Shown: positions 2,357-10,762 of the stretch, piece by piece
Numbering within the stretch: position 1 is the first letter of the stretch
Layout: every line of letters starts with the position of its first letter
DNA from: a virus
Strand: one strand, 5' to 3'
Virus genome (UHGV): UHGV-0242546
DNA length: 10,762 bases
Made by a program: the position numbers and the translations under genes
Notes under the pieces: model-generated
What the model was told of the DNA's origin: nothing
Database searches by the model: none
What the model saw: only the letters and a program-made list of their open reading frames with translations

Positions 2357-2918
2357 CTTTCCAGCCTACGCGTTTCTTTAAGGCTGTTCTGACTTCAAGC
2401 CTGAGATTCGCTATTGGAATATTTTCCGCAATAATATTCCATAACTCAAATCGGGGCTTGCTTTTGATTCCTTTGGAATAGCCCCATCGTTCAAGTACGT
2501 CGATACATTCATCTTTCCAAAGCAATTGAGCGAGCATCAATGTGTCATGGTTTCGATTAAGCTTTTCTCCACGCATGTGCTTTATAAGAATGGCGCCTTT
2601 TGGCCCAACAGAAACCGTTTTAACGCCCCACCAACCTGGGATTAACTTTAATGCTCCCTCAAGATGTTTCTCAGCTACGACAAGAGTAACCTTGTCCATT
2701 ACAGAAGAATAATGCTTGATTTGAAGAGGCAAACGCTCCAAAGAGTCATATTCACTTTTGAGCTCGTACCCGTGTATAACACCATTTATTACAGCAATGT
2801 CTGCTCTACTGGCGCCAAGGGATATGGAAAATTCATCGACCACAAGGCAGTCTGGATCTAAATGCGATTCTTTCAAAAGCTTATGATGCACCGCGAACCT
2901 AACATCTTGATCTTTCAT
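2298..2918 (-). CDS. Hypothetical 206-aa protein with a PD-(D/E)xK nuclease-like motif arrangement, AT-rich cargo gene
   Basis: Strong Shine-Dalgarno (AAGGAG, 5-nt spacer) upstream of ATG 2918. Residues ~28-54 read VVDEF...SRADIAVINGVIHGYELK, i.e. acidic residue, then D, then E-x-K with restriction-endonuclease-fold spacing. Convergent with, and overlapping by 59 nt, the 3' end of the 355-aa gene. Confidence 0.8.
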   Translation of the reverse strand: MKDQDVRFAVHHKLLKESHLDPDCLVVDEFSISLGASRADIAVINGVIHGYELKSEYDSLERLPLQIKHYSSVMDKVTLVVAEKHLEGALKLIPGWWGVKTVSVGPKGAILIKHMRGEKLNRNHDTLMLAQLLWKDECIDVLERWGYSKGIKSKPRFELWNIIAENIPIANLRLEVRTALKKRVGWKVKAWQAESAPTNKAVSRLT

Positions 2919-2980
2919 GACTTCTCCTTACTCCCTCCGTTATTGAATTATAGCGCACTGCATTTTACTGCATTTGAGAG
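2919..2980 (-). promoter_or_regulatory. Putative promoter of the 206-aa gene: perfect -10 TATAAT (plus 2947-2952) preceded by a tandem direct repeat AATGCAGT x2
   Basis: Minus strand reads ...CAAATGCAGTAAAATGCAGTGCGCTATAATTCAATAACGGAGGGAGTAAGGAGAAGTCATG. The TATAAT lies 28 nt upstream of the ATG. There is no good -35 hexamer; instead the -35 position is occupied by two tandem AATGCAGT copies, a possible regulator binding site. Confidence 0.35.
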
Positions 2981-3266
2981 ATTTGACCACTTCAATCACA
3001 AAATGCTTATCTGCAGCAACAAGATTCATAGCCATACGACTATGGTGATTACCTTTTGTCTGGAAAACTGACCATTCCACGAAGATCAGATAGGTCTATA
3101 GAATCTTGGTTTGTCATAGCGTTCGCCTTACTTTGAGATGAACCTTTGCTGCATAGGAGATCAGCCCGTCAAGGCTCACCAGCACTAACTGACTACTCAA
3201 AGGCTCATTCCAAAGGGTTTGGTTCGACGTGGTTGAGTGCACTGCGGTGCGCGGTGAAATACCTGT

Positions 3267-3334: not shown

Positions 3335-3772
3335 TTATTTTAAGCACTGCGTCCTGATGTACTCCTGCAGGTAGTTGACCTGCGCGGTTATCTTGTCGAT
3401 TCCACTTCGGAGACGGTAATAATTGAGTTCAGCATCTGCTGTAAGTCTTGGGCTTTCTCCATTGCCCATGCCGCTGGCTCCGGTCGTTGACTTTGCACAG
3501 GTAGCGGCGACTTGCAGGCGCTTACGCCCAGCAGAAACATCAGCACGGAGGCTTTCGATAGTCGCGTTAGCATCAGCAAGCTCCTTTGTATATCTGGCAT
3601 CGAGTTCTGCTACGTCACGTTGACGCTTCTGCATATCAGCGATTGTGGATGTGGCTTTATCGCGCTGCTCTTTGTAGGTTATGGCGTTATCACGGTAATG
3701 ATTCAGCCCCAGACTAAGCGCACCACAGGCCACCAGCAGGGCAATGATGACCACGCACAGTACGCGGTTCAT
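3335..3772 (-). CDS. Rz: Rz i-spanin (inner-membrane spanin subunit), 145 aa
   Basis: Protein starts MNRVLCVVIIALLVACGALSLGLNHYRDNAITYKEQRDKA (N-terminal TM anchor then coiled-coil periplasmic domain), the typical Rz architecture. It is the last gene of the lysis cassette and has an embedded +1-frame lipoprotein ORF. Confidence 0.85.
   Translation of the reverse strand: MNRVLCVVIIALLVACGALSLGLNHYRDNAITYKEQRDKATSTIADMQKRQRDVAELDARYTKELADANATIESLRADVSAGRKRLQVAATCAKSTTGASGMGNGESPRLTADAELNYYRLRSGIDKITAQVNYLQEYIRTQCLK
3388..3573 (-). CDS. Rz1: Rz1 o-spanin (outer-membrane lipoprotein), embedded out of frame within Rz; ~61 aa precursor
   Basis: The +1-frame ORF inside Rz encodes MLTRLSKASVLMFLLGVSACKSPLPVQSQRPEPAAW...: signal peptide with lipobox (V-S-A-C) followed by a proline-rich mature peptide, as in lambda Rz1. 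The ORF track gives the longer version (3388-3600); the start at the second Met is chosen on signal-peptide logic. Confidence 0.7.
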   Translation of the reverse strand: MLTRLSKASVLMFLLGVSACKSPLPVQSQRPEPAAWAMEKAQDLQQMLNSIITVSEVESTR

Positions 3773-3773
3773 T

Positions 3774-3911
3774 TCACCACCAGCGTATCTGACCGATGAA
3801 ATAACCGGAGGCCATAATCACAAACACCAGCCAGATAAGAATGAACTTCCAGGTGGATAATTTTTCAGCCATCACTCGAATCTCCCGAATCAGTTTGCTA
3901 AAATCAAACAC
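3774..3911 (-). CDS. Small putative single-pass membrane protein (45 aa from GTG 3911, or 32 aa from ATG 3872), translationally coupled to Rz
   Basis: AGGAG Shine-Dalgarno 6 nt upstream of GTG at 3911. Product MFDFSKLIREIRVMAEKLSTWKFILIWLVFVIMASGYFIGQIRWW has one clear hydrophobic helix. Its TGA stop lies 1 nt before the Rz ATG. The long N-terminal extension in the 89-aa track ORF is Lys-rich low-complexity and contains a hairpin, so it is probably non-coding. Confidence 0.4.
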   Translation of the reverse strand: MFDFSKLIREIRVMAEKLSTWKFILIWLVFVIMASGYFIGQIRWW

Positions 3912-3981: not shown

Positions 3982-4070
3982 ACTTTTATTCTCTTAGTTT
4001 TTGTCAGTTCGCAGGATTTCGTGTTATCCGTCCGTGTGAGCAAACCGCATTTTTCAGCAAAATATTCTGC

Positions 4071-4604
4071 TTATCTGTCAATTCCCCAGCACGCCAGCGC
4101 ACTCTCCTGGTCGCGACGGGATACCTGACCGTAACAGTTGTTTGAGCGAATACGGCAGTCTCTGCCACCGACCTTAATCCACCAGCGAATCGCCTCACAC
4201 GCTCCCCTGCGATCACCTGCATTAATTCGTTTATAAAACGTCGACGGAAAACACTTACCGGGGCCAATGTTGTACGGACAGAATGACGCGATCCCCGCTT
4301 TCTGGGGTTCACTCAATGGCACTCTGATGTTTTTCTCCACCCATGCCAGCGCCTTATCACGCTCAATGGCGTTAACCCGGTCGCATTTTTCCTTCGACAA
4401 CTTCATGCCCGGAACGACAGGTTTGCCATCCACCAGGATGGCACCGCGGCAGATGGTCCAGATACCCGCGCCATCACGGTATGCCGTGGTGTGGTTACCT
4501 TCCTTTTCATCCAGAAACTGGTCGAGAATGTCAGGCGCAGGCGCACCAGCGGCAATCAGCGCCAGAACGGCAGCCGACAGGCCGTATTTGATTTTGGTGT
4601 TCAT
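4071..4604 (-). CDS. R: SAR endolysin (phage-21 R-type lysozyme, T4-lysozyme fold with N-terminal signal-anchor-release domain), 177 aa
   Basis: N-terminus MNTKIKYGLSAAVLALIAAGAPAP is a weakly hydrophobic, Gly/Ala-rich SAR-type segment. It is followed by EGNHTTAYRDGAGIWTICRGA, the E-x8-D-x5-T catalytic-triad spacing of T4-type lysozymes. It sits downstream of a pinholin-type S. Confidence 0.9.
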   Translation of the reverse strand: MNTKIKYGLSAAVLALIAAGAPAPDILDQFLDEKEGNHTTAYRDGAGIWTICRGAILVDGKPVVPGMKLSKEKCDRVNAIERDKALAWVEKNIRVPLSEPQKAGIASFCPYNIGPGKCFPSTFYKRINAGDRRGACEAIRWWIKVGGRDCRIRSNNCYGQVSRRDQESALACWGIDR

Positions 4605-7463: not shown

Positions 7464-7469
7464 GTCCAT

Positions 7470-7705
7470 AAGAAAGCCCCTCCGGAGAGGGGCTAAAGCC
7501 GCGTATCTGTATCATCATGCACATGGTGCCGGGTGCCTCCCGGTGAGTTCAGCCCGGTGCCACTAAACCCGCGTCATTCTCGTTTTGATAATCAGAGATT
7601 ATACCGTCACCAGTCGCCCCTCCGCTCAGGGGGATTCACCATGCGAAATTTTTTTAACAAATGCCCAGTCTGACAGGCAACTGTCAACTTACTGAATTGT
7701 GAGCA
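7470..7705. repeat. Direct repeat copy A of a ~230-bp structured non-coding element
   Basis: Shares conserved blocks with copy B, in the same order with divergent spacers: AGAAAGCCCCTCCGGAGAGGGGCT, CATGGTGCCGGGTGCCTCCCGGTGA(G/A)TTCAG, GCCCCTCCGC(T/A)CAGGGGGATTCACCATGC, TTTTAACAAA, CTGAATTGTGAG. Confidence 0.7.
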
Positions 7706-7739
7706 ACATAGCATTTAACGGGGAACCTGTTTTCTGCAG

Positions 7740-7767
7740 TAAAAAGGCCCACCGGAGCGGATGGGCC
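7740..7767 (-). terminator. Terminator-like hairpin (minus strand) between the two repeat copies
   Basis: Minus-strand RNA GGCCCAUCCG-CUC-CGGUGGGCC followed by UUUUUACUG. Confidence 0.4.
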
Positions 7768-7956
7768 TGGAAGGATAGCGGTCATGTGATGCCGGTTTCC
7801 CGGTAACTCAGCACCGGTATCTGAGTCAACGTTTTCTCTACTGGGTCATTTCCGATACGCCCTGCCTGCTGACAGGCTTTCATCACATCTGAAAATATAG
7901 CACCCTGACTGATACTGTAGTACCTAAGGTTCCAGAAACTGTGATGTATCCGGCAC

Positions 7957-8175
7957 AGAAAAGCCCCTCCGGAGAGGGGCTGGAGAGTGGCGCTATGTGC
8001 CATTGCATGGTGCCGGGTGCCTCCCGGTGAATTCAGTACCAGCACCTGAATCCGCGATTATCCCATATACCTACTCGCTGATTGCCCCTCCGCACAGGGG
8101 GATTCACCATGCCAGTTTCTTTTAACAAACTCCCCGCAAACCAGACAACAGTCAACCGCCTGAATTGTGAGACAT
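7957..8175. repeat. Direct repeat copy B of the ~230-bp structured non-coding element
   Basis: See copy A. Same conserved blocks in the same order, immediately downstream (in transcription sense) of tRNA argO and its terminator. Confidence 0.7.
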
Positions 8176-8216: not shown

Positions 8217-8293
8217 TGGCGCGTTGTACTGGATTCGAACCAGTGACCGATTGCTTAGAAGGCAATTGCTCTGTCCGGCTGAGCTAACAACGC
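8217..8293 (-). tRNA. argO: tRNA-Arg (anticodon UCU, reads AGA), phage argO-like
   Basis: Minus strand GCGTTGTTAGCTCAGCCGGACAGAGCAATTGCCTTCTAAGCAATCGGTCACTGGTTCGAATCCAGTACAACGCGCCA folds as a canonical cloverleaf: 7-bp acceptor stem, GCTC/GAGC D-stem, anticodon loop CTTCTAA, T-loop TTCGAAT, encoded CCA. Confidence 0.9.
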
Positions 8294-8306
8294 AGGATAC
8301 AGATAA

Positions 8307-8383
8307 TGGACCGCCTTCGGGGACCCGAACTCCGCGCAACCAGCTTCGAAGGCTGGCGCTCTTTCCTGATGAGCTAATGGCGG
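8307..8383 (-). tRNA. argN: tRNA-Arg-like (anticodon UCG as read, would decode CGA), phage argN-like, with non-canonical features
   Basis: Minus strand CCGCCATTAGCTCATCAGGAAAGAGCGCCAGCCTTCGAAGCTGGTTGCGCGGAGTTCGGGTCCCCGAAGGCGGTCCA. Cloverleaf is recognisable (GCTC/GAGC D-stem, anticodon stem CCAGC/GCTGG, loop CTTCGAA, encoded CCA), but it has an A-A mismatch in the acceptor stem, one T-stem mismatch and G instead of the conserved A58. Confidence 0.7.
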
Positions 8384-8390
8384 TATGTGA

Positions 8391-8466
8391 TGGTGGCCCT
8401 TGCTGGATTTGAACCAGCGACCTGGCGATTATGAGTCGCTCGCTCTCACCACTGAGCTAAAGGGCC
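8391..8466 (-). tRNA. ileZ: tRNA-Ile2 (anticodon CAU, lysidine-type, reads AUA), phage ileZ-like
   Basis: Minus strand GGCCCTTTAGCTCAGTGGTGAGAGCGAGCGACTCATAATCGCCAGGTCGCTGGTTCAAATCCAGCAAGGGCCACCA is near-identical to E. coli tRNA-Ile2 (ileX) as I recall it; anticodon loop CTCATAA. Confidence 0.9.
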
Positions 8467-8515: not shown

Positions 8516-9565
8516 TCAAACGATTAAATCCTGAACTTCCCTGACTGTCTGCTCAAAACGTCCGGTCTCCAGTTCAACGCCAATCGCACGACGCCCGAGC
8601 GCCAGTGCCGCTTTTACCGTTGAACCTGAGCCCATAAAAAAATCTGCAACCAGGTCACCCGGACGACTGCTTGCGCTGATTATCTGCTGCAGCATTTCTG
8701 CCGGTTTTTCGCACGGATGTTTCCCGGGATAGAACTGCACCGGTTTATGTGTCCACACATCCGTGTACGGCACCTGCGCCGTCACACCAAAATACCGCCG
8801 CAGATGCTTATATTCACTCTGCAGCTCCACATACTGCCGGTTCAGTGACGTATACGTATCCACCAGCTGGTGGTGGGGCTTTTCCAGTTCACCGCGCTGA
8901 TGTTTCTCTTCTGCCACCCGGGCAAACAGCGACTGTAATTTCAGATAATCGCTTTCGTTCGGTAGCTGCCACTGACTGGCACTGAACCAGTGCGACACCA
9001 TGTTTTTCTTTCCTGTGGCATCTGCAATCTGTTTTGCCGTTATCCCCAGGGCCGCGCGCGCATCACGAAAGTAAGAAATCAGCGGGGCCATCACATGCTG
9101 TTTCAGTGCACTGCCCTTCGCCGCATACCTGGCATCTTTCGGACGATACGGCCCCTGATAATGTTCCGCGAACAGAATGCGCTCTGTGGCGGGGAAATAC
9201 GCCCGCAGGCTTTCCTTGTTGCATCCGTTCCAGCGTCCGGACGGCTTCGCCCAGATAATATGGTTCAGCACACTGAAGCGTTCACGCATCATGATTTCGA
9301 TATCAGATGCCAGGCGATGACCACAGAACAGGTAAAGACTTCCGGCAGGTTTCAGCACCCGCCAGAACTGCGCCAGACACTGGTCCAGCCACTTCAGGTA
9401 ATCATCGTCGCCCTTCCACTGGTTATCCCAGCCCTCAGGCTTCACTTTAAAGTACGGCGGGTCCGTGACTATCAGGTCAACAGAATTTTCGGGTAACGAC
9501 CGGATAAATTCCAGGCAGTCGGCGTTGATTAACTCACAACTGGATATTTTTACAGTATTAAGCAT
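8516..9565 (-). CDS. Orphan DNA amino-methyltransferase (N6-adenine or N4-cytosine), beta-class motif order, 349 aa
   Basis: Motif IV DPPY at residues 35-38 (LIVTDPPYF) near the N-terminus and AdoMet-binding motif I FxGxG (DFFMGSGST) near the C-terminus, i.e. IV-then-I order. No restriction endonuclease partner is visible in the window. Confidence 0.9.
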   Translation of the reverse strand: MLNTVKISSCELINADCLEFIRSLPENSVDLIVTDPPYFKVKPEGWDNQWKGDDDYLKWLDQCLAQFWRVLKPAGSLYLFCGHRLASDIEIMMRERFSVLNHIIWAKPSGRWNGCNKESLRAYFPATERILFAEHYQGPYRPKDARYAAKGSALKQHVMAPLISYFRDARAALGITAKQIADATGKKNMVSHWFSASQWQLPNESDYLKLQSLFARVAEEKHQRGELEKPHHQLVDTYTSLNRQYVELQSEYKHLRRYFGVTAQVPYTDVWTHKPVQFYPGKHPCEKPAEMLQQIISASSRPGDLVADFFMGSGSTVKAALALGRRAIGVELETGRFEQTVREVQDLIV

Positions 9566-9597
9566 GGATCATTAAGCCTGTCTCTGATAGGCTCATT

Positions 9598-9686
9598 CTG
9601 CTTTTGCGCAAAGCAGTGGGCCTGAGGTTTGCTTGTGAACCCAACGCATGAGCAGATGGCTGGTGGGTGCCCCTAACACCCACCAG
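9598..9686. promoter_or_regulatory. Pair of palindromes upstream of the methyltransferase: near-perfect 19-bp CTGCTTTTGCGCAAAGCAG (9598-9616) and perfect 10-bp inverted repeat CTGGTGGGTG-N7-CACCCACCAG (9660-9686)
   Basis: Read directly from the sequence. Neither is followed by a U-tract on either strand, so they look more like operator sites or RNA stability stem-loops than terminators. Confidence 0.5.
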
Positions 9687-9705
9687 CCGCCCATTTACCA
9701 CAAAT

Positions 9706-9729
9706 AAAAAAGCCTTCACTGCGGAAGGC
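9706..9729 (-). terminator. Rho-independent terminator overlapping the stop codon of the small wHTH ORF
   Basis: Minus-strand RNA GCCUUC-CGCAGU-GAAGGC followed by UUUUUU. Confidence 0.6.
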
Positions 9730-9913
9730 GTCTGTAACAACCGAACTGATAGTCTGCCAGACCCGCCATAACCAGCTGGGTCAGTATTAACTGGCAGCGT
9801 TCGCGTGAAAGGTAAGTATTCTGTGCAATCTCCCCGACTGTCGCCGGTTCGGTAACGCTTAATTCATTAAACACTACTCTGGCGGTTTCTGTCATATCCT
9901 GCTGTTTTAGCAT
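9716..9913 (-). CDS. Small putative winged-HTH DNA-binding protein, 65 aa
   Basis: MLKQQDMTETARVVFNELSVTEPATVGEIAQNTYLSRERCQLILTQLVMAGLADYQFGCYRRLPQ: the segment ATVGEIAQNTYLSRERCQLILTQLVMAGL has the helix-turn-helix / recognition-helix pattern of MarR/ArsR-type wHTH proteins. The track ORF (94 aa from GTG 10000) is probably an over-extension; the ATG at 9913 is preceded by a purine-rich stretch. Confidence 0.55.
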   Translation of the reverse strand: MLKQQDMTETARVVFNELSVTEPATVGEIAQNTYLSRERCQLILTQLVMAGLADYQFGCYRRLPQ

Positions 9914-10034
9914 GTCTTTTTCCCTTTTCCGGTTAACGTGACACACCAATAACTCTTGTCGAAAAAGCCAGCAAGCTGAAAGACAGGTATTCACCGCCAC
10001 CAGCGCGTTTACTGTACTGACGCGATTTCAGTCA

Positions 10035-10058
10035 TAAAAAACCCGCCAGGCGGCGGGG
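10035..10058 (-). terminator. tR'-like Rho-independent terminator about 45-65 nt downstream of the late promoter
   Basis: Minus-strand RNA CCCGCC-GCCU-GGCGGG followed by UUUUUUAUGAC. Confidence 0.65.
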
Positions 10059-10099
10059 TGTAAAAAATCTTCTAACGTCAGGCATAAAACGCCCATCGT

Positions 10100-10137
10100 T
10101 AGAGCAAATTTACCACAGATTCGGGAAAAATCAACAA
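10100..10137 (-). promoter_or_regulatory. pR'-like late promoter with Q-binding region: -35 TTGATT (plus 10129-10134), -10 TAAATT (plus 10107-10112)
   Basis: Minus strand TTGTTGATTTTTCCCGAATCTGTGGTAAATTTGCTCTAACGATGGGCG parallels lambda pR' as recalled (TTGACT...GGGTAAATTTGACTCAACGATGGG), including the AACGAT pause-inducing -10-like element just downstream. It begins 5 nt after the Q stop codon. Confidence 0.65.
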
Positions 10138-10139
10138 CA

Positions 10140-10762
10140 CTATCGCGTTACCCTCTTTAACTGCCGCTCCGCCCATGCCTCTTCAATGTCAAACCGAACC
10201 ACCAACGTATCGTAAAAGCGTTTCACTGATTTTTTCCACGTATCAAGCGTGATAGCACTCGTCACTTTGCATATGGCATTAAATGCCTCCGTTGATGGTA
10301 GTCTTTCACAGCCACGACCACCACAACGCTGGCAGTCTCTGATAACAGGCATACCACGTTTTACCGACTCTTCACGATGAATGGCGACACCACGCCCACG
10401 GCAATCCTTACAGGCGGTGGAAACCTCACCCTTTCCGCCACACTCCGGACAGGCAACTTTTACCACCTCCCTGACTTTTTTCCATTCTTCCCAGTAAGAC
10501 GGATACACACCTTTCGTACACTTTGCCCATACCGGCGGCTTACCATCCGGATACCAGAACAGGTCGAAGTAATACCCGCACGTTACCTCCAGATGCGCTG
10601 CTGGAATGTGCGGGACGAGGCCGGATTCGACCTGAACGCCTTCCTCGACGAACTCGAACTGTCTGACCCGGTCGAAGCCATACACACCGTTTCCCGCGAC
10701 CTGACGCTGGGGGCAATCTTGCCGCTGGCCAACGGCGGCGAAACCAACGCATGGCTTATCCA
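10140..10762 (-). CDS. Q: Late-gene antiterminator Q (lambda-Q family, zinc-finger); reading frame open to the window edge, true start uncertain (GTG at 10685 or beyond the window)
   Basis: C-terminal half CKDCRGRGVAIH...CQRCGGRGCERLPSTEAFNAICKVTSAITLDTWKKSVKRFYDTLVVRFDIEEAWAERQLKRVTR parallels lambda Q as recalled (CRDCHGTGRAV...CGRCKGVGYSRMPASAAYRAV...TWSRTVKPLYDALVVQCHKEESIADNILNAVTR). A pR'-like promoter follows immediately downstream. The track ORF starts at GTG 10685, but the frame has no stop between there and 10762. Confidence 0.8.
   Translation of the reverse strand, partial: DKPCVGFAAVGQRQDCPQRQVAGNGVYGFDRVRQFEFVEEGVQVESGLVPHIPAAHLEVTCGYYFDLFWYPDGKPPVWAKCTKGVYPSYWEEWKKVREVVKVACPECGGKGEVSTACKDCRGRGVAIHREESVKRGMPVIRDCQRCGGRGCERLPSTEAFNAICKVTSAITLDTWKKSVKRFYDTLVVRFDIEEAWAERQLKRVTR

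What the first reader, a model, noticed from the sequence alone, without database searches (positions are those of the whole stretch)
9566..10000. Self-contained small wHTH gene with its own terminator, followed by two palindromes, between pR'/tR' and the methyltransferase
A 65-aa protein with a winged-helix-like recognition segment is encoded just after the tR'-like terminator and ends in its own intrinsic terminator. The 150 bp between it and the methyltransferase start carry a perfect 10-bp inverted repeat (N7 spacer) and a 19-bp near-palindrome. This looks like a small regulator plus operator arrangement that could control the downstream orphan methyltransferase, in the manner of the C-proteins of restriction-modification systems, or late transcription.
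Basis: inference. Interest (0 to 1): 0.45.

Follow-up and report, generated by a model that had tools for sequence, protein, structure and literature searches.

The report
RNA leader guarding a promiscuous methylase
The two "palindromes" are stems of a conserved RNA leader that matches no Rfam family, lying between a small winged-helix protein gene and a phage gene for a non-specific (M.EcoGII-type) DNA adenine methylase, so the region looks like a control cassette for a dangerous enzyme rather than a repressor-operator pair.

Summary

The methylase is about 94% identical to M.EcoGII, the non-specific adenine methylase that is silent in lysogens and harmful when expressed.

The two palindromes are not operators. 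They are helices P1 and P3 of a ~145-nt structured RNA leader (9560-9704). On the set that includes distant phages, 26 of 34 base pairs show compensatory changes, and G-U pairs fall on the sense strand only. No Rfam family matches.

This leader precedes the methylase in 11 of 12 distantly related phages checked (Yersinia, Klebsiella, Vibrio, Aeromonas). In four of them a Mu Com-like zinc-ribbon gene sits directly upstream of the methylase gene. In the window that neighbouring position, upstream of the leader, holds the winged-helix gene.

Best reading: a com/mom-like, largely post-transcriptional gate on a toxic hypermodifying methylase. The role of the winged-helix protein is inferred, not shown.

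The parts
10042..10057 (-). tR'-like intrinsic terminator hairpin (CCCGCCGCCTGGCGGG plus T-run running down to about 10032). It lies downstream of the lambda-type Q gene (10140-10685) and a lambda pR'-like sequence (about 10095-10135). It marks the 5' limit of the module shared between phages that carry different Q genes.
   Evidence: Terminator scan. Q = PF03589, E 1e-27. Homology with most Stx2 phages starts at about 10057. The pR' assignment rests on my recollection of lambda pR' and was not tested.
9938..9976 (-). Conserved upstream box, CTTGCTG - about N10 - CAGAGTTA(T/C)(C/A)TGT(G/A)TG, 45-85 nt before the small gene's ATG. It has a promoter-like layout (TTGCTG-17-TATTGG here; TATCTG or TACATG in others). 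It is a candidate promoter or operator; its function is unknown.
   Evidence: Conserved in all clades, including those whose small protein is only about 40% identical. It does not pass the sigma-70 consensus scan. Its layout resembles the annotated putative late promoters of N15 and phiKO2.
9716..9913 (-). Gene for a 65-aa stand-alone winged-helix protein (PHROG 331; named 'TrmB family transcriptional regulator' or 'hypothetical protein' in public annotation).
9702..9729 (-). Hairpin over the stop codon (9712-9729) plus U-run (9702-9711): intrinsic-terminator-like ('T2'). In position it corresponds to the terminator that directly precedes the leader in N15-like phages.
   Evidence: Compensatory changes in the stem across genera, a variable U-run, and absence in Proteus/Providencia. 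In N15, PY54, PhiR46_1, phiARM81ld and phiKO2 a terminator abuts the 5' end of the leader.
9560..9704 (-). Structured RNA leader of the methylase gene (about 145 nt). It contains a conserved 5' motif AAAUGGGCG, helices P0, P1, P2 and P3, and a conserved 3' tail GAGCCUAUCA...CUGAUC-AUG. It matches no Rfam family.
   Evidence: Covariance model R1. On 73 sequences: 87.8% of cells paired against 26-45% for slid controls, 17 pairs with changes on both sides, 0 of 500 shuffles as high. On the set with distant phages: 26 of 34 pairs with changes on both sides. MFE z-score -4.17. No Rfam match above threshold. Stop codons in all frames and length changes not in threes.
9658..9688 (-). Its 5' arm contains the Chi octamer GCTGGTGG (9680-9687, gene strand). 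In this window the 3' arm carries a second, inverted Chi (9659-9666, plus strand).
   Evidence: P1 is paired in 97.9% of cells, with 7 of 12 pairs covarying and 11 of 12 with distant phages included. Chi-free variants keep the hairpin.
9628..9656 (-). Helix P2 of the leader, separated from P1 by one unpaired A. Its inner part is mismatched in the E. coli type and paired in the Proteus/Plesiomonas types.
   Evidence: The pair at columns 53/79 shows AU, CG, UG and UA and has the top mutual information in the alignment.
9590..9622 (-). Helix P3 of the leader. The 5' side of its base (GCCCA, 9617-9621) can instead pair with the 5' motif UGGGC (9689-9693) to form P0, which closes a three-way junction around P1 and P2.
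   Evidence: In the apical part of P3, 6 of 6 pairs covary. For P0, the consensus is UGGGC/GCCCA; L035 has UGAGC/GCUCA and phiARM81ld has GUGGC/GCCAC, which are compensated changes in two lineages, read by eye.
8516..9565 (-). Gene for a 349-aa beta-class N6-adenine DNA methyltransferase of the M.EcoGII/M.EcoGI family (non-specific adenine methylase). Its start codon has no usable Shine-Dalgarno sequence.
   Evidence: PF01555, E 2e-44. 94% identical to the M.EcoGII sequence printed in PMC11551740 Table S1. 96% identical to the phage 1720a-02 enzyme named in PMC5778455. Anti-SD pairing has a median of -2.9 kcal/mol over 33 loci (window plus 32 related).

Best explanation
The flagged region is the front half of a conserved cassette at the head of a temperate-phage late operon. 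Its parts, in order, are a conserved box, a 65-aa winged-helix protein gene, a hairpin/terminator over its stop codon, a ~145-nt structured RNA leader, and an M.EcoGII-type non-specific adenine methylase gene with no Shine-Dalgarno sequence.

Shown:
- The two 'palindromes' are helices P1 and P3 of the RNA leader, on the gene strand.
- The leader is the most constant companion of this methylase family across Enterobacterales, Vibrio and Aeromonas phages.
- The small protein is a genuine winged helix whose gene travels with the methylase.

Taken from the literature: the enzyme family methylates adenine in nearly any context, is silent in lysogens, and is deleterious when expressed constitutively.

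Inferred mechanism:
- In the lysogen, the constitutive late promoter is stopped at tR'. Any read-through is stopped again at the stop-codon terminator.
- Any methylase mRNA that is made is poorly translated, because the start has no SD and lies behind the folded leader.
- After induction, Q-modified polymerase reads through. The leader, which can adopt alternative pairings (P0 versus the base of P3), together with the small protein acting in trans, then permits methylase synthesis, so that progeny DNA is hypermethylated against restriction.

The winged-helix gene sits next to the leader and methylase, as a Mu Com-like zinc-ribbon gene does in Aeromonas and Vibrio relatives. In those phages the Com-like gene lies between leader and methylase; in the window the winged-helix gene lies upstream of the leader. 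I therefore take its most likely role to be a dedicated regulator of methylase expression that works like Com does for mom, that is post-transcriptionally. It is not a member of the Com family.
For: RNA structure:
- 85-88% of cells paired against 26-45% in slid controls; 13, 17 and 26 pairs with changes on both sides; 0 of 500 shuffles reach the observed values.
- U-G pairs fall on the gene strand, for example 39 of 73 sequences at one P1 pair.
- MFE z-score -4.17.
- The leader is non-coding.

Breadth of the leader: model R1 hits directly upstream of the methylase, or of the Com-like gene plus methylase, in PY54, N15, PhiR46_1, phiKO2, LLS, VHML, MAR, Valp1, ST2-1pr, phiARM81ld and PCAh2, with E from 7e-41 to 3e-5.

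Methylase identity and toxicity:
- Sequence identity.
- PMC5778455 reports that M.EcoGII is silent in the lysogen and that constitutive expression is harmful.
- PMC7556043 reports non-specific or relaxed activity for the phiARM81ld p56 and OS31 p25 homologues.

Weak SD at the methylase start in all 33 loci examined (window plus 32 related).

Synteny of the small gene with the methylase: 32 of 34 genomes of other genera, two divergent clades, and distant homologues in N15, PY54, PhiR46_1 and phiKO2.

Com-like gene in the neighbouring position: phiARM81ld matches PF10122 at 27.9 bits against a cut-off of 22.9. The CxxC...CxxC ORFs of Valp1, ST2-1pr and PCAh2 have the same pattern.

Winged-helix fold.

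Role of Com in Mu (translational activator that binds mom mRNA): established knowledge, not tested here.
Against: - No experiment or computation here shows that the winged-helix protein binds RNA, DNA or the methylase.
- The protein is acidic to neutral by my hand count of charged residues (net about -1 here, about -4 in Proteus/Providencia). That is unusual for a nucleic-acid binder.
- The leader occurs without any winged-helix or Com-like gene in LLS, VHML and MAR. It therefore cannot depend strictly on the small protein.
- In N15-like phages the winged-helix gene lies upstream of the late promoter, not in the methylase transcript.
- In E. coli about one third of the small-gene copies have no adjacent methylase: 4237 places against 2805-3088. 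The ORF is intact in PhiR5_1 and in the Stx2k phage. This suggests either recent deletions or an independent function.
- M.EcoGII is fully active alone (PMC5778455).
- In the Com-type phages the leader lies upstream of the com-like gene, so the leader is not Com's obvious target there.
- The P0/P3 alternative pairing rests on few independent changes.
Confidence: 0.45

Rival explanations
1. C-protein-like or otherwise transcriptional control. The winged-helix protein is a DNA-binding factor that acts on a cassette promoter. Its site would be the conserved upstream box at about 9938-9976, not the palindromes. The RNA leader would be an independent layer.
For: - The fold is most similar to DNA-binding ArsR/MarR/BlaI/IclR domains.
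- The third helix carries the most conserved residues (C40, L44, T45, Q46).
- The upstream box is conserved in every clade and has a promoter-like layout, TTGCTG-17-TA(T/C)(C/A)TG, similar to the annotated putative late promoters of N15 and phiKO2.
- In N15-like phages the gene sits right next to the late promoter.
Against: - The palindromes themselves covary as RNA, with G-U pairs on one strand only.
- The box fails the sigma-70 consensus scan, and its -10-like hexamer lacks the final T in this window and in most of the sequences I read.
- Its dyad symmetry is weak and not kept in the window.
- The protein is a 65-aa monomer-sized domain with no dimerisation helices, and it is acidic.
- There is no restriction gene and no Xre-type HTH.
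Confidence: 0.2
2. The small protein acts after translation. It could bind the methylase as an inhibitor or antitoxin-like partner, or as a targeting factor. Alternatively it could bind hypermethylated DNA as an m6A reader or shield.
For: - An acidic small protein encoded just upstream of a toxic, DNA-binding enzyme has the gene order of a toxin-antitoxin pair.
- The top Foldseek and PDB-profile matches are the N-terminal winged-helix domains fused to SAM-dependent methyltransferases (RedM, DsyB, PigF), which mediate protein contacts rather than DNA binding.
- Winged-helix domains that sense 6mA DNA are known (PMC11037411, abstract seen).
- Its position between tR' and T2 would allow low expression in lysogens without methylase expression.
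Against: - M.EcoGII needs no partner for activity (PMC5778455).
- The structural matches are generic for the fold (E about 2e-3).
- There is no evidence of contact, and no complex prediction could be run.
- The leader RNA is left unexplained by this reading.
Confidence: 0.15
3. The leader is autonomous (a riboswitch, thermosensor, host-factor site, RNA-stability element or put-like antiterminator). The winged-helix gene would then be a passenger with a function unrelated to the methylase, and the adjacency would reflect a shared insertion hot spot just after tR'.
For: - Leader-only arrangements exist in LLS, VHML and MAR.
- Small-gene-only arrangements are common in E. coli.
- P1 and P2 are two stem-loops separated by one nucleotide, as I recall for HK022 put RNA (not tested).
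- Mosaic junctions fall inside P1 at the Chi site.
Against: - The small gene and the methylase stay together from Escherichia to Plesiomonas, in two further divergent clades, and in N15-like phages despite rearranged spacing. That is hard to explain without a functional link.
- No ligand or factor can be named.
- No Rfam riboswitch matches.
Confidence: 0.15
4. The inverted repeat is primarily a DNA-level feature: a pair of Chi recombination hotspots in a Chi-rich lambdoid phage, with the hairpin being incidental.
For: - There are 8 Chi octamers in the window against 0.38 expected, 6 of them on the gene strand. This matches the Chi-rich lambdoid phages described in PMC12315714.
- The P1 5' arm is GGCTGGTGGGTG in most Enterobacteriaceae.
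- Recombination junctions lie at this site.
Against: - Chi-free versions keep a fully compensated hairpin at the same place: Proteus GACTGTAAAAGTG/CACCTTTACAGTC, VHML ACCUGCCCC/GGGGCAGGG, and N15, PY54 and phiARM81ld.
- Only the gene-strand Chi is conserved; the second one is particular to this E. coli type.
- Chi and RNA helix are therefore superimposed constraints, not alternatives.
Confidence: 0.1

Closest known systems
Phage Mu com-mom (a translational activator plus a DNA-modification gene)
   Same: - A small protein gene lies immediately upstream of a late, toxic, anti-restriction adenine-modifying enzyme gene.
- An RNA structure is present at or before the enzyme's start.
- Expression is confined to late lytic growth.
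- Homologues of this very methylase are preceded by Com-family zinc-ribbon genes in phiARM81ld, PCAh2, Valp1 and ST2-1pr.
   Different: - The window's protein is a winged helix, not a zinc ribbon.
- The enzyme is a SAM-dependent N6-methyltransferase, not Mom.
- The small gene does not overlap the enzyme's start; it is separated from it by a 150-nt leader.
- The leader is a multi-helix element rather than a single inhibitory hairpin.
- RNA binding by the protein is untested.
Controller (C) proteins of type II restriction-modification systems
   Same: A small DNA-binding-fold protein is encoded next to a DNA methyltransferase. A delay or threshold logic for a dangerous enzyme is plausible.
   Different: C-proteins are Xre-type HTH dimers that bind C-boxes upstream of their own gene and mainly control the endonuclease. 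Here the fold is winged helix, there is no endonuclease, and the proposed operators are RNA stems downstream of the gene.
M.EcoGII / M.EcoGI (PMC5778455) and the homologues phiARM81ld p56 and OS31 p25 (PMC7556043)
   Same: The window's methylase is 94% identical to M.EcoGII over 349 aa, with the same beta-class motif order (DPPY ... FxGxG) and a central helix-turn-helix-like target recognition domain.
   Different: The papers I read describe the enzyme only. The M.EcoGII paper contains no occurrence of the word 'upstream', and I found no mention of a leader RNA or of the small gene.
N15 / phiKO2 / PY54 gp51 - late promoter - terminator - gp52 methylase region
   Same: - gp51 is a distant homologue of the winged-helix protein (hhalign probability 84-86%). 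RefSeq calls the phiKO2 protein a 'winged helix-turn-helix domain-containing protein'.
- gp52 is a 57-60% identical methylase.
- The same leader RNA lies between the terminator and the methylase.
   Different: In N15-like phages the late promoter and its terminator lie between the winged-helix gene and the leader. In the window the winged-helix ORF lies between tR' and the leader, and its stop codon sits in the terminator loop.
Lambda Q - pR' - tR' late control
   Same: The cassette begins right after a Q gene, a pR'-like promoter and an intrinsic terminator. All downstream terminators would be overridden by Q-modified polymerase.
   Different: The cassette is shared by phages with at least four different Q types, so it is not part of the Q system itself.
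PHROG 331 / NCBI 'TrmB family transcriptional regulator'
   Same: The small protein belongs to PHROG 331 (E 1e-37) and carries the TrmB name in several records.
   Different: PHROG 331 has no assigned function. The Pfam TrmB score is 18 bits against a cut-off of 25.6. To my knowledge true TrmB proteins are much larger sugar-sensing regulators.

Membership tests
Winged-helix (wHTH) fold superfamily | H1-strand-H2-H3 followed by a beta-hairpin wing | tested here: met
Controller (C) proteins of R-M systems | Xre/HTH_3-type helix-turn-helix protein | tested here: not met
   Pfam reports no HTH_3 match for the small protein, only sub-threshold wHTH families. The predicted fold is winged helix.
Controller (C) proteins of R-M systems | Palindromic C-boxes upstream of the C gene that act as DNA operators | tested here: not met
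   The flagged palindromes lie downstream of the gene and behave as RNA helices. The upstream box has only weak dyad symmetry.
Controller (C) proteins of R-M systems | Linked restriction endonuclease gene | tested here: not met
   The methylase is followed by three tRNA genes and STnc100 copies. No nuclease gene is present. The enzyme family is described as orphan (PMC5778455; PMC6602927).
TrmB family (PF01978) | Score above the Pfam gathering threshold | tested here: not met
   18.0 bits against a cut-off of 25.6.
MarR family (PF12802/PF01047) | Pfam threshold met, and flanking dimerisation helices present | tested here: not met
   MarR_2 scores 14.7 bits against a cut-off of 27. The 65-aa model consists of the bare winged-helix core only.
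Mu Com family (PF10122) | Zinc ribbon with CxxC ... CxxC | tested here: not met
   The window protein has two Cys residues, no CxxC pair and a winged-helix fold. The feature is met by the gene just upstream of the methylase in phiARM81ld (27.9 bits). The same pattern is present in Valp1, ST2-1pr and PCAh2.
Mu Com family (works-like claim) | Binds the target mRNA and activates translation of the downstream modification gene | not testable with these tools
   Inference from gene position, the structured leader and the weak SD.
M.EcoGII-type beta-class N6-adenine methyltransferase | High identity to M.EcoGII, with an N-terminal DPPY motif and a C-terminal FxGxG motif | tested here: met
   330 of 350 aligned positions identical (94%) to the published sequence. 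DPPY is at residues 35-38 and FMGSGS at 310-315. PF01555, E 2e-44.
M.EcoGII-type beta-class N6-adenine methyltransferase | Methylates adenine without sequence specificity | not testable with these tools
   Shown experimentally for M.EcoGII (PMC5778455). Reported for phiARM81ld p56 and OS31 p25 (PMC7556043).
Intrinsic (rho-independent) terminator | G+C-rich hairpin followed by a U-run | tested here: met
   9729-9712 has a 6-bp stem with 4 G-C pairs and a 6-nt loop, followed by TTTTTTATTT. The feature is conserved only in part of the family. Termination efficiency was not tested.
Any Rfam 15 RNA family | Score at or above the family's gathering threshold | tested here: not met
   The best match is P26 at 24.2 bits against 36, and it lies on the opposite strand.
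Structured cis-regulatory RNA (generic) | Conserved base-paired helices supported by compensatory changes on one strand | tested here: met
   In the set with distant phages, 26 of 34 pairs have changes on both sides. Slid controls show 32-40% paired against 85% observed.
Chi recombination hotspot | Exact 5'-GCTGGTGG-3' | tested here: met
   9680-9687 on the minus strand and 9659-9666 on the plus strand. The window holds 8 sites against 0.38 expected. Activity is not testable here.

The most novel reading that the evidence does not exclude
The ~145-nt element is a new class of phage RNA switch: a three-way junction closed by P0 that competes with the base of P3. It gates expression of non-specific adenine methylases in temperate phages of at least three bacterial orders. 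The PHROG-331 winged-helix protein would be a new kind of RNA-directed translational regulator, one that has taken over in enterobacterial phages the role I infer for the Com-like proteins of Vibrio and Aeromonas phages by analogy with Mu Com.
Probability: 0.25. Interest if true: 0.8.

Novelty: new variant of a known kind. Interest (0 to 1): 0.62.

Why it matters
M.EcoGII-type enzymes methylate almost every adenine, and M.EcoGII is widely used as a chromatin-footprinting tool. How phages keep such an enzyme silent in lysogens and release it during lytic growth has not been described in the papers I could search.

The work here supplies three things:
- a concrete, testable control cassette;
- an RNA motif with strong covariation that matches no Rfam family and is present in over 1,800 of 5,426 complete E. 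coli genomes and in phages of Yersinia, Klebsiella, Vibrio and Aeromonas;
- a possible case of non-homologous replacement (winged helix versus Com-like zinc ribbon) next to the same enzyme.

The module lies directly upstream of stx2 in many Shiga-toxin phages. Anything that alters transcription or RNA processing there could therefore also bear on toxin expression.

Tried and rejected
- The first AF2 run used a shallow alignment (81% identity or more). It gave pLDDT 61.6 and was uninformative. It was rerun with a diverse alignment.
- RNAalifold on a plain MAFFT alignment gave a poor consensus, because bulges had shifted the arms. It was replaced by a hand-derived structure and a covariance model.
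- A sigma-70 promoter between the small gene and the leader (TGTGGTAAAT resembles the pR' -10 region) was rejected. The register is not kept across taxa, and the scan finds nothing.
- An alternative pairing of the P2 3' arm (AAGCG) with CGCTT near the start codon was rejected. The apparent covariation (columns 77/164) is one clade-level change, and columns 79/162 do not covary.
- A hairpin ATCAG/CTGAT just before the ATG has uncompensated C-A mismatches in about half of the sequences.
- Reading the leader as protein-coding was rejected.
- The methylase homologue search returned only close relatives (74% identity or more) and did not help with distant context. tblastn on the phage collection did.
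- The supplement of the M.EcoGII paper is not held.
- The Serratia OS31 p23/p24 'toxin-antitoxin' genes next to its methylase are unrelated to the winged-helix protein.
- A repeat at the PhiR5_1 deletion junction was not found in the window.
Full report
**What is there.** All genes in the right-hand part of the window read on the minus strand.
- A lambda-type Q gene (PF03589, E 1e-27; 10140-10685) is followed by a sequence that I recognise from memory as lambda pR'-like (about 10095-10135).
- Next comes a strong intrinsic terminator (10042-10057 plus T-run).
- Then come a 65-aa ORF (9716-9913) and a hairpin with the ORF's TGA in its loop, followed by TTTTTTATTT (9702-9729).
- Exactly 150 nt of non-coding sequence follow, then a 349-aa PF01555 methyltransferase (8516-9565).
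- Downstream lie tRNA-Met/Arg/Arg genes and STnc100 copies.
- The inverted repeat is perfect, with 12-nt arms (9658-9669 / 9677-9688). The 19-nt near-palindrome is at 9598-9616.

The exception is 'self-contained', because no promoter is predicted on the gene strand.

**How common it is.**
- The 495-bp stretch 9566-10060 occurs in 2284 of 5426 complete E. coli genomes, with up to 8 copies per genome.
- It occurs in many Stx2 phages, where the module lies between Q and the tRNA-stx2 genes. Examples are phiP27 L23/L24 and Stx2_EH1910.
- The shared DNA begins at the tR' hairpin whatever Q gene lies upstream.

**The small protein.**
- Pfam gives only sub-threshold winged-helix hits (TrmB 18 bits against 25.6; MarR_2, HTH_24, DprA_WH).
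- It belongs to PHROG 331, which has no assigned function.
- The family is narrow: 86 representatives at 50% identity in 1.84 billion proteins.
- With a shallow alignment AF2 was uninformative. With a diverse alignment it gave pLDDT 93.1 and pTM 0.80 and a canonical H1-strand-H2-H3-wing topology.
- Foldseek and a PDB profile search put the N-terminal winged-helix domains of small-molecule SAM methyltransferases and MarR/IclR proteins on top, at marginal E-values.
- The fold claim is thus met, but the fold does not tell nucleic-acid binding from protein binding.
- Median pairwise dN/dS is 0.27, so it is a real gene.
- The most conserved residues lie in the third helix and the turn after it (C40, L44, T45, Q46, A50, G51) and in the N-terminal M7-T8.
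- By my hand count of charged residues the protein is acidic to neutral.

**The methylase.**
- It is 94% identical to the M.EcoGII sequence printed in PMC11551740.
- It is 96% identical to the phage 1720a-02 enzyme, which PMC5778455 names as a close relative.
- That paper shows that M.EcoGII methylates adenine in any context, is not expressed in the lysogen, and is deleterious when expressed constitutively.
- PMC7556043 reports the same relaxed specificity for the homologues phiARM81ld p56 and Serratia OS31 p25, and predicts it for phiP27.
- The 'orphan methyltransferase' is therefore a toxic, hypermodifying, presumably anti-restriction enzyme.

**Linkage.**
- In 34 genomes of other genera fetched through the small protein, a methylase homologue follows at 142-153 nt in 32 (Escherichia albertii, Kluyvera, Salmonella, Klebsiella, Citrobacter, Enterobacter, Buttiauxella, Mixta, Mangrovibacter, Proteus, Providencia, Plesiomonas and others). 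One contig ends too early, and one locus has lost the methylase.
- The small protein diverges faster (down to 41%) than the methylase (59%).
- Two further clades keep the pair with shorter spacers of about 100 nt and about 52 nt.
- Within E. coli the link is looser. There are 4237 places for the small gene, 3088 for the leader and 2805 for the methylase.
- In PhiR5_1-type prophages (205 genomes) and in the Stx2k phage the small ORF is intact, but the DNA downstream is replaced from inside the inverted repeat onward.

**The palindromes are RNA helices.** Aligning the 150-nt spacers showed that they are highly conserved and that the stems change by compensation.

*Model.* I derived three helices (P1, P2, P3) and built covariance model R1.

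*Pair counts.*
- On the MAFFT alignment: 85.1% of cells pair against 29-42% when partners are slid. 13 pairs have changes on both sides, and 0 of 500 shuffles reach the observed values.
- On 73 model-aligned distinct sequences: 87.8% pair against 26-45%. 17 pairs have changes on both sides. P1 is paired in 97.9% of cells.

*Strand and coding.*
- U-G pairs are frequent on the gene strand, for example 39 of 73 sequences at one P1 pair. On the other strand these would be A-C mismatches, so the structure belongs to the sense RNA.
- The window's leader folds with a z-score of -4.17.
- It has stop codons in all three frames and length changes that are not multiples of three.
- No Rfam family reaches its threshold, even when only 531 nt are scanned.

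*Mapping to the finding.*
- The near-palindrome is the tip of P3.

**The leader reaches much further than the small gene.** tblastn of the methylase against the phage collection found 96 records, including Klebsiella, Yersinia, Hafnia, Providencia, Vibrio and Aeromonas phages. The small protein found 57.
- R1 hits directly upstream of the methylase in PY54 (59 bits), phiKO2 (60), N15 (43), PhiR46_1 (40), LLS (164) and VHML/MAR (46).
- R1 hits upstream of a small ORF plus the methylase in Valp1 (41), ST2-1pr (37), PCAh2 (36) and phiARM81ld (29).
- Only phiO18P, where the methylase sits inside the lysis cassette, lacks the leader.
- With these distant members included, 26 of 34 pairs show changes on both sides, 11 of 12 pairs in P1 and 6 of 6 in the P3 tip covary, and 85% of cells pair against 32-40% for slid controls. 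That alignment was fitted to the model, which favours the structure; the slid controls and the independent MAFFT result guard against this.
- The invariant 5' motif UGGGC can pair with the invariant GCCCA at the foot of P3, forming P0, which would close a three-way junction around P1 and P2. The only two lineages that vary there are compensated: L035 has UGAGC/GCUCA and phiARM81ld has GUGGC/GCCAC (read by eye because the aligner shifts one column).
- P0 competes with the base of P3, whose outermost pair also covaries (G-C to A-U). Alternative conformations are therefore plausible but not proven.

**What accompanies the leader-methylase pair.** There are three arrangements.
- *Winged-helix gene.* In enterobacterial lambdoid prophages it sits immediately upstream, as in the window. 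In N15, PhiR46_1, phiKO2 and PY54 a distant homologue (gp51/ORF59) lies one step further up, before the annotated putative late promoter and its terminator. Support for the homology is hhalign probability 84-86%, HMM E from 9e-5 to 6e-3, and RefSeq's name 'winged helix-turn-helix domain-containing protein' for phiKO2 gp51.
- *Com-like zinc ribbon.* It lies between leader and methylase and overlaps the methylase start in phiARM81ld, as com overlaps mom in Mu. It is found in phiARM81ld (PF10122, 27.9 bits, above threshold), PCAh2, Valp1 (16.3 bits) and ST2-1pr (same CxxC...CxxC pattern).
- *Neither.* LLS, VHML and MAR have neither.

In N15-like phages and phiARM81ld an intrinsic terminator followed by UGCCUGAAAA abuts the leader's 5' motif. 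The window's stop-codon hairpin plus U-run occupies the same position. The same TGCCTGAAAT follows tR' upstream of the small gene in many loci. It therefore looks as if the winged-helix ORF sits between a tR'-type terminator and the leader. In the ~52-nt clade a P1-like hairpin followed by U6 stands right before the methylase.

**Translation start.** Pairing of the 22 nt before the methylase ATG with the anti-SD is weak in all 33 loci examined (window plus 32 related), with a median of -2.9 kcal/mol and a range from -3.4 to +0.5. Several other genes of the window reach -8 to -10. The conserved CUGAUC(U/C)AUGAAA carries no SD.

**Most likely mechanism (inferred).**
- The enzyme is dangerous, so the phage stacks barriers: tR', a second terminator at the end of the small ORF, a folded leader, and an SD-less start.
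- Q-modified polymerase removes the transcriptional barriers after induction.
- The leader, possibly switching between the P0 and P3-base pairings, then sets how much methylase is made. The small trans-acting protein contributes in phages that have one.
- In four relatives a Com-family gene lies directly upstream of the methylase, where the window has the leader and, beyond it, the winged-helix gene. Com is the classic translational activator of a late, toxic adenine-modifying gene (established knowledge).
- I therefore rate a Com-like regulatory role as the single most likely function of the winged-helix protein.

The caveats are real:
- There are leader-only phages.
- Small-gene-only prophages are common in E. 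coli.
- The gene sits upstream of the late promoter in N15-like phages.
- The protein is acidic.
- No binding data exist.

**Alternatives kept open.**
- A DNA-binding role at the conserved upstream box (about 9938-9976). The box is CTTGCTG-N10-CAGAGTTA(T/C)(C/A)TGT(G/A)TG, present in every clade. Its layout, TTGCTG-17-TA(T/C)(C/A)TG, recalls the putative late promoters annotated in N15 and phiKO2 (TTGGCA-17-TATCTT), but it fails the consensus scan.
- A post-translational partner or inhibitor of the methylase, or a reader of m6A DNA.
- An unrelated passenger gene.
- The inverted repeat seen purely as Chi DNA. This is contradicted by Chi-free, fully compensated hairpins in other taxa.

**Prior knowledge and novelty.**
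- The methylase family and the existence of the small ORF are known. The ORF is annotated as hypothetical or 'TrmB family' and belongs to PHROG 331.
- The M.EcoGII paper contains no occurrence of 'upstream' and, in the parts I read, no mention of a leader.
- Searches of the held library found no description of the leader or of the small gene's role. Rfam 15 has no matching family. The library is incomplete, so prior description elsewhere cannot be excluded.
- I class the finding as a new variant of a known kind. It is com/mom-like gating of a hypermodifying enzyme, with an RNA motif that matches no Rfam family and a different protein fold.

Noticed in passing
window 3730-3737, 3777-3784, 4179-4186, 8860-8867, 9680-9687, 9997-10004 (minus strand); 8866-8873, 9659-9666 (plus strand): There are eight Chi octamers (GCTGGTGG) against 0.38 expected from shuffles. 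Six are on the late-gene sense strand. If this phage has the standard lambda layout, that would be the active orientation as described for Chi-rich lambdoid phages (PMC12315714). CCACCAGCTGGTGG at 8860-8873 is a palindromic double Chi inside the methylase gene.
   Followed up: partly
window about 9666-9677; L003 about 4005-4010; L002 about 4000: Mosaic junctions between prophage types fall inside P1, right at the Chi arm. PhiR5_1-type prophages (205 E. coli genomes) and the Stx2k phage keep the small gene but have different DNA from there on: a DUF3927 region and an AraC-like low-GC insert respectively. About a third of E. coli small-gene copies lack the methylase.
   Followed up: partly
window about 9938-9976 (minus strand): A conserved box, CTTGCTG-N10-CAGAGTTA(T/C)(C/A)TGT(G/A)TG, lies 45-85 nt upstream of the small gene in every clade examined. 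Its layout is promoter-like, but its -10-like hexamer is non-consensus. Its function is unknown.
   Followed up: partly
window 7464-7673, 7951-8141 (and weakly 7739-7912), minus strand: Two strong copies and one weak copy of the sRNA family STnc100 (165, 136 and 30 bits) lie downstream of the tRNA genes. This is the region that holds stx2AB in the related Stx2 phages. No stx gene is present here.
   Followed up: no
window 8217-8466, minus strand: tRNA-Met(cat), tRNA-Arg(tcg) and tRNA-Arg(tct) genes lie directly after the methylase. The same tRNA set precedes stx2 in the Stx2_EH1910 and Stx2k phages.
   Followed up: no
window 10140-10762: The Q-like ORF starts with GTG, and homologues in other loci align only from about residue 39. 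Reading the sequence by eye, it looks different in composition beyond about 10600. The left part of Q may be truncated, or there may be a junction at the window edge.
   Followed up: no
window 9566-9572 (CTGATCC before the ATG at 9563-9565); same place in nearly all loci: A GATC (Dam) site immediately 5' of the methylase start codon is present in nearly all of the aligned leaders (CUGAUCUAUG or CUGAUCCAUG).
   Followed up: no
window 9913-9922 and 9961-9970: A 10-nt inverted repeat (90% complementary) would pair GCUUUUUC with GAAAAAGAC across the small gene's ribosome-binding site. It is specific to the E. coli type and not conserved in other genera.
   Followed up: partly
L274 (N15) 1234-1260; L282 (phiKO2) 1236-1253: In N15-like phages the palindrome right after the winged-helix gene's stop codon is annotated in phiKO2 as a putative plasmid partitioning site. 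The late promoter, terminator, leader and methylase follow.
   Followed up: no
L280 (Vibrio phage ST2-1pr) 1247-1435; L281 (Aeromonas phage PCAh2) 1278-1514: Unannotated Com-like zinc-ribbon ORFs (for example MTLLKELRCPHCNKLLCRHSGSVEIKCSRCKNIVKR) lie between the leader and the methylase gene.
   Followed up: partly
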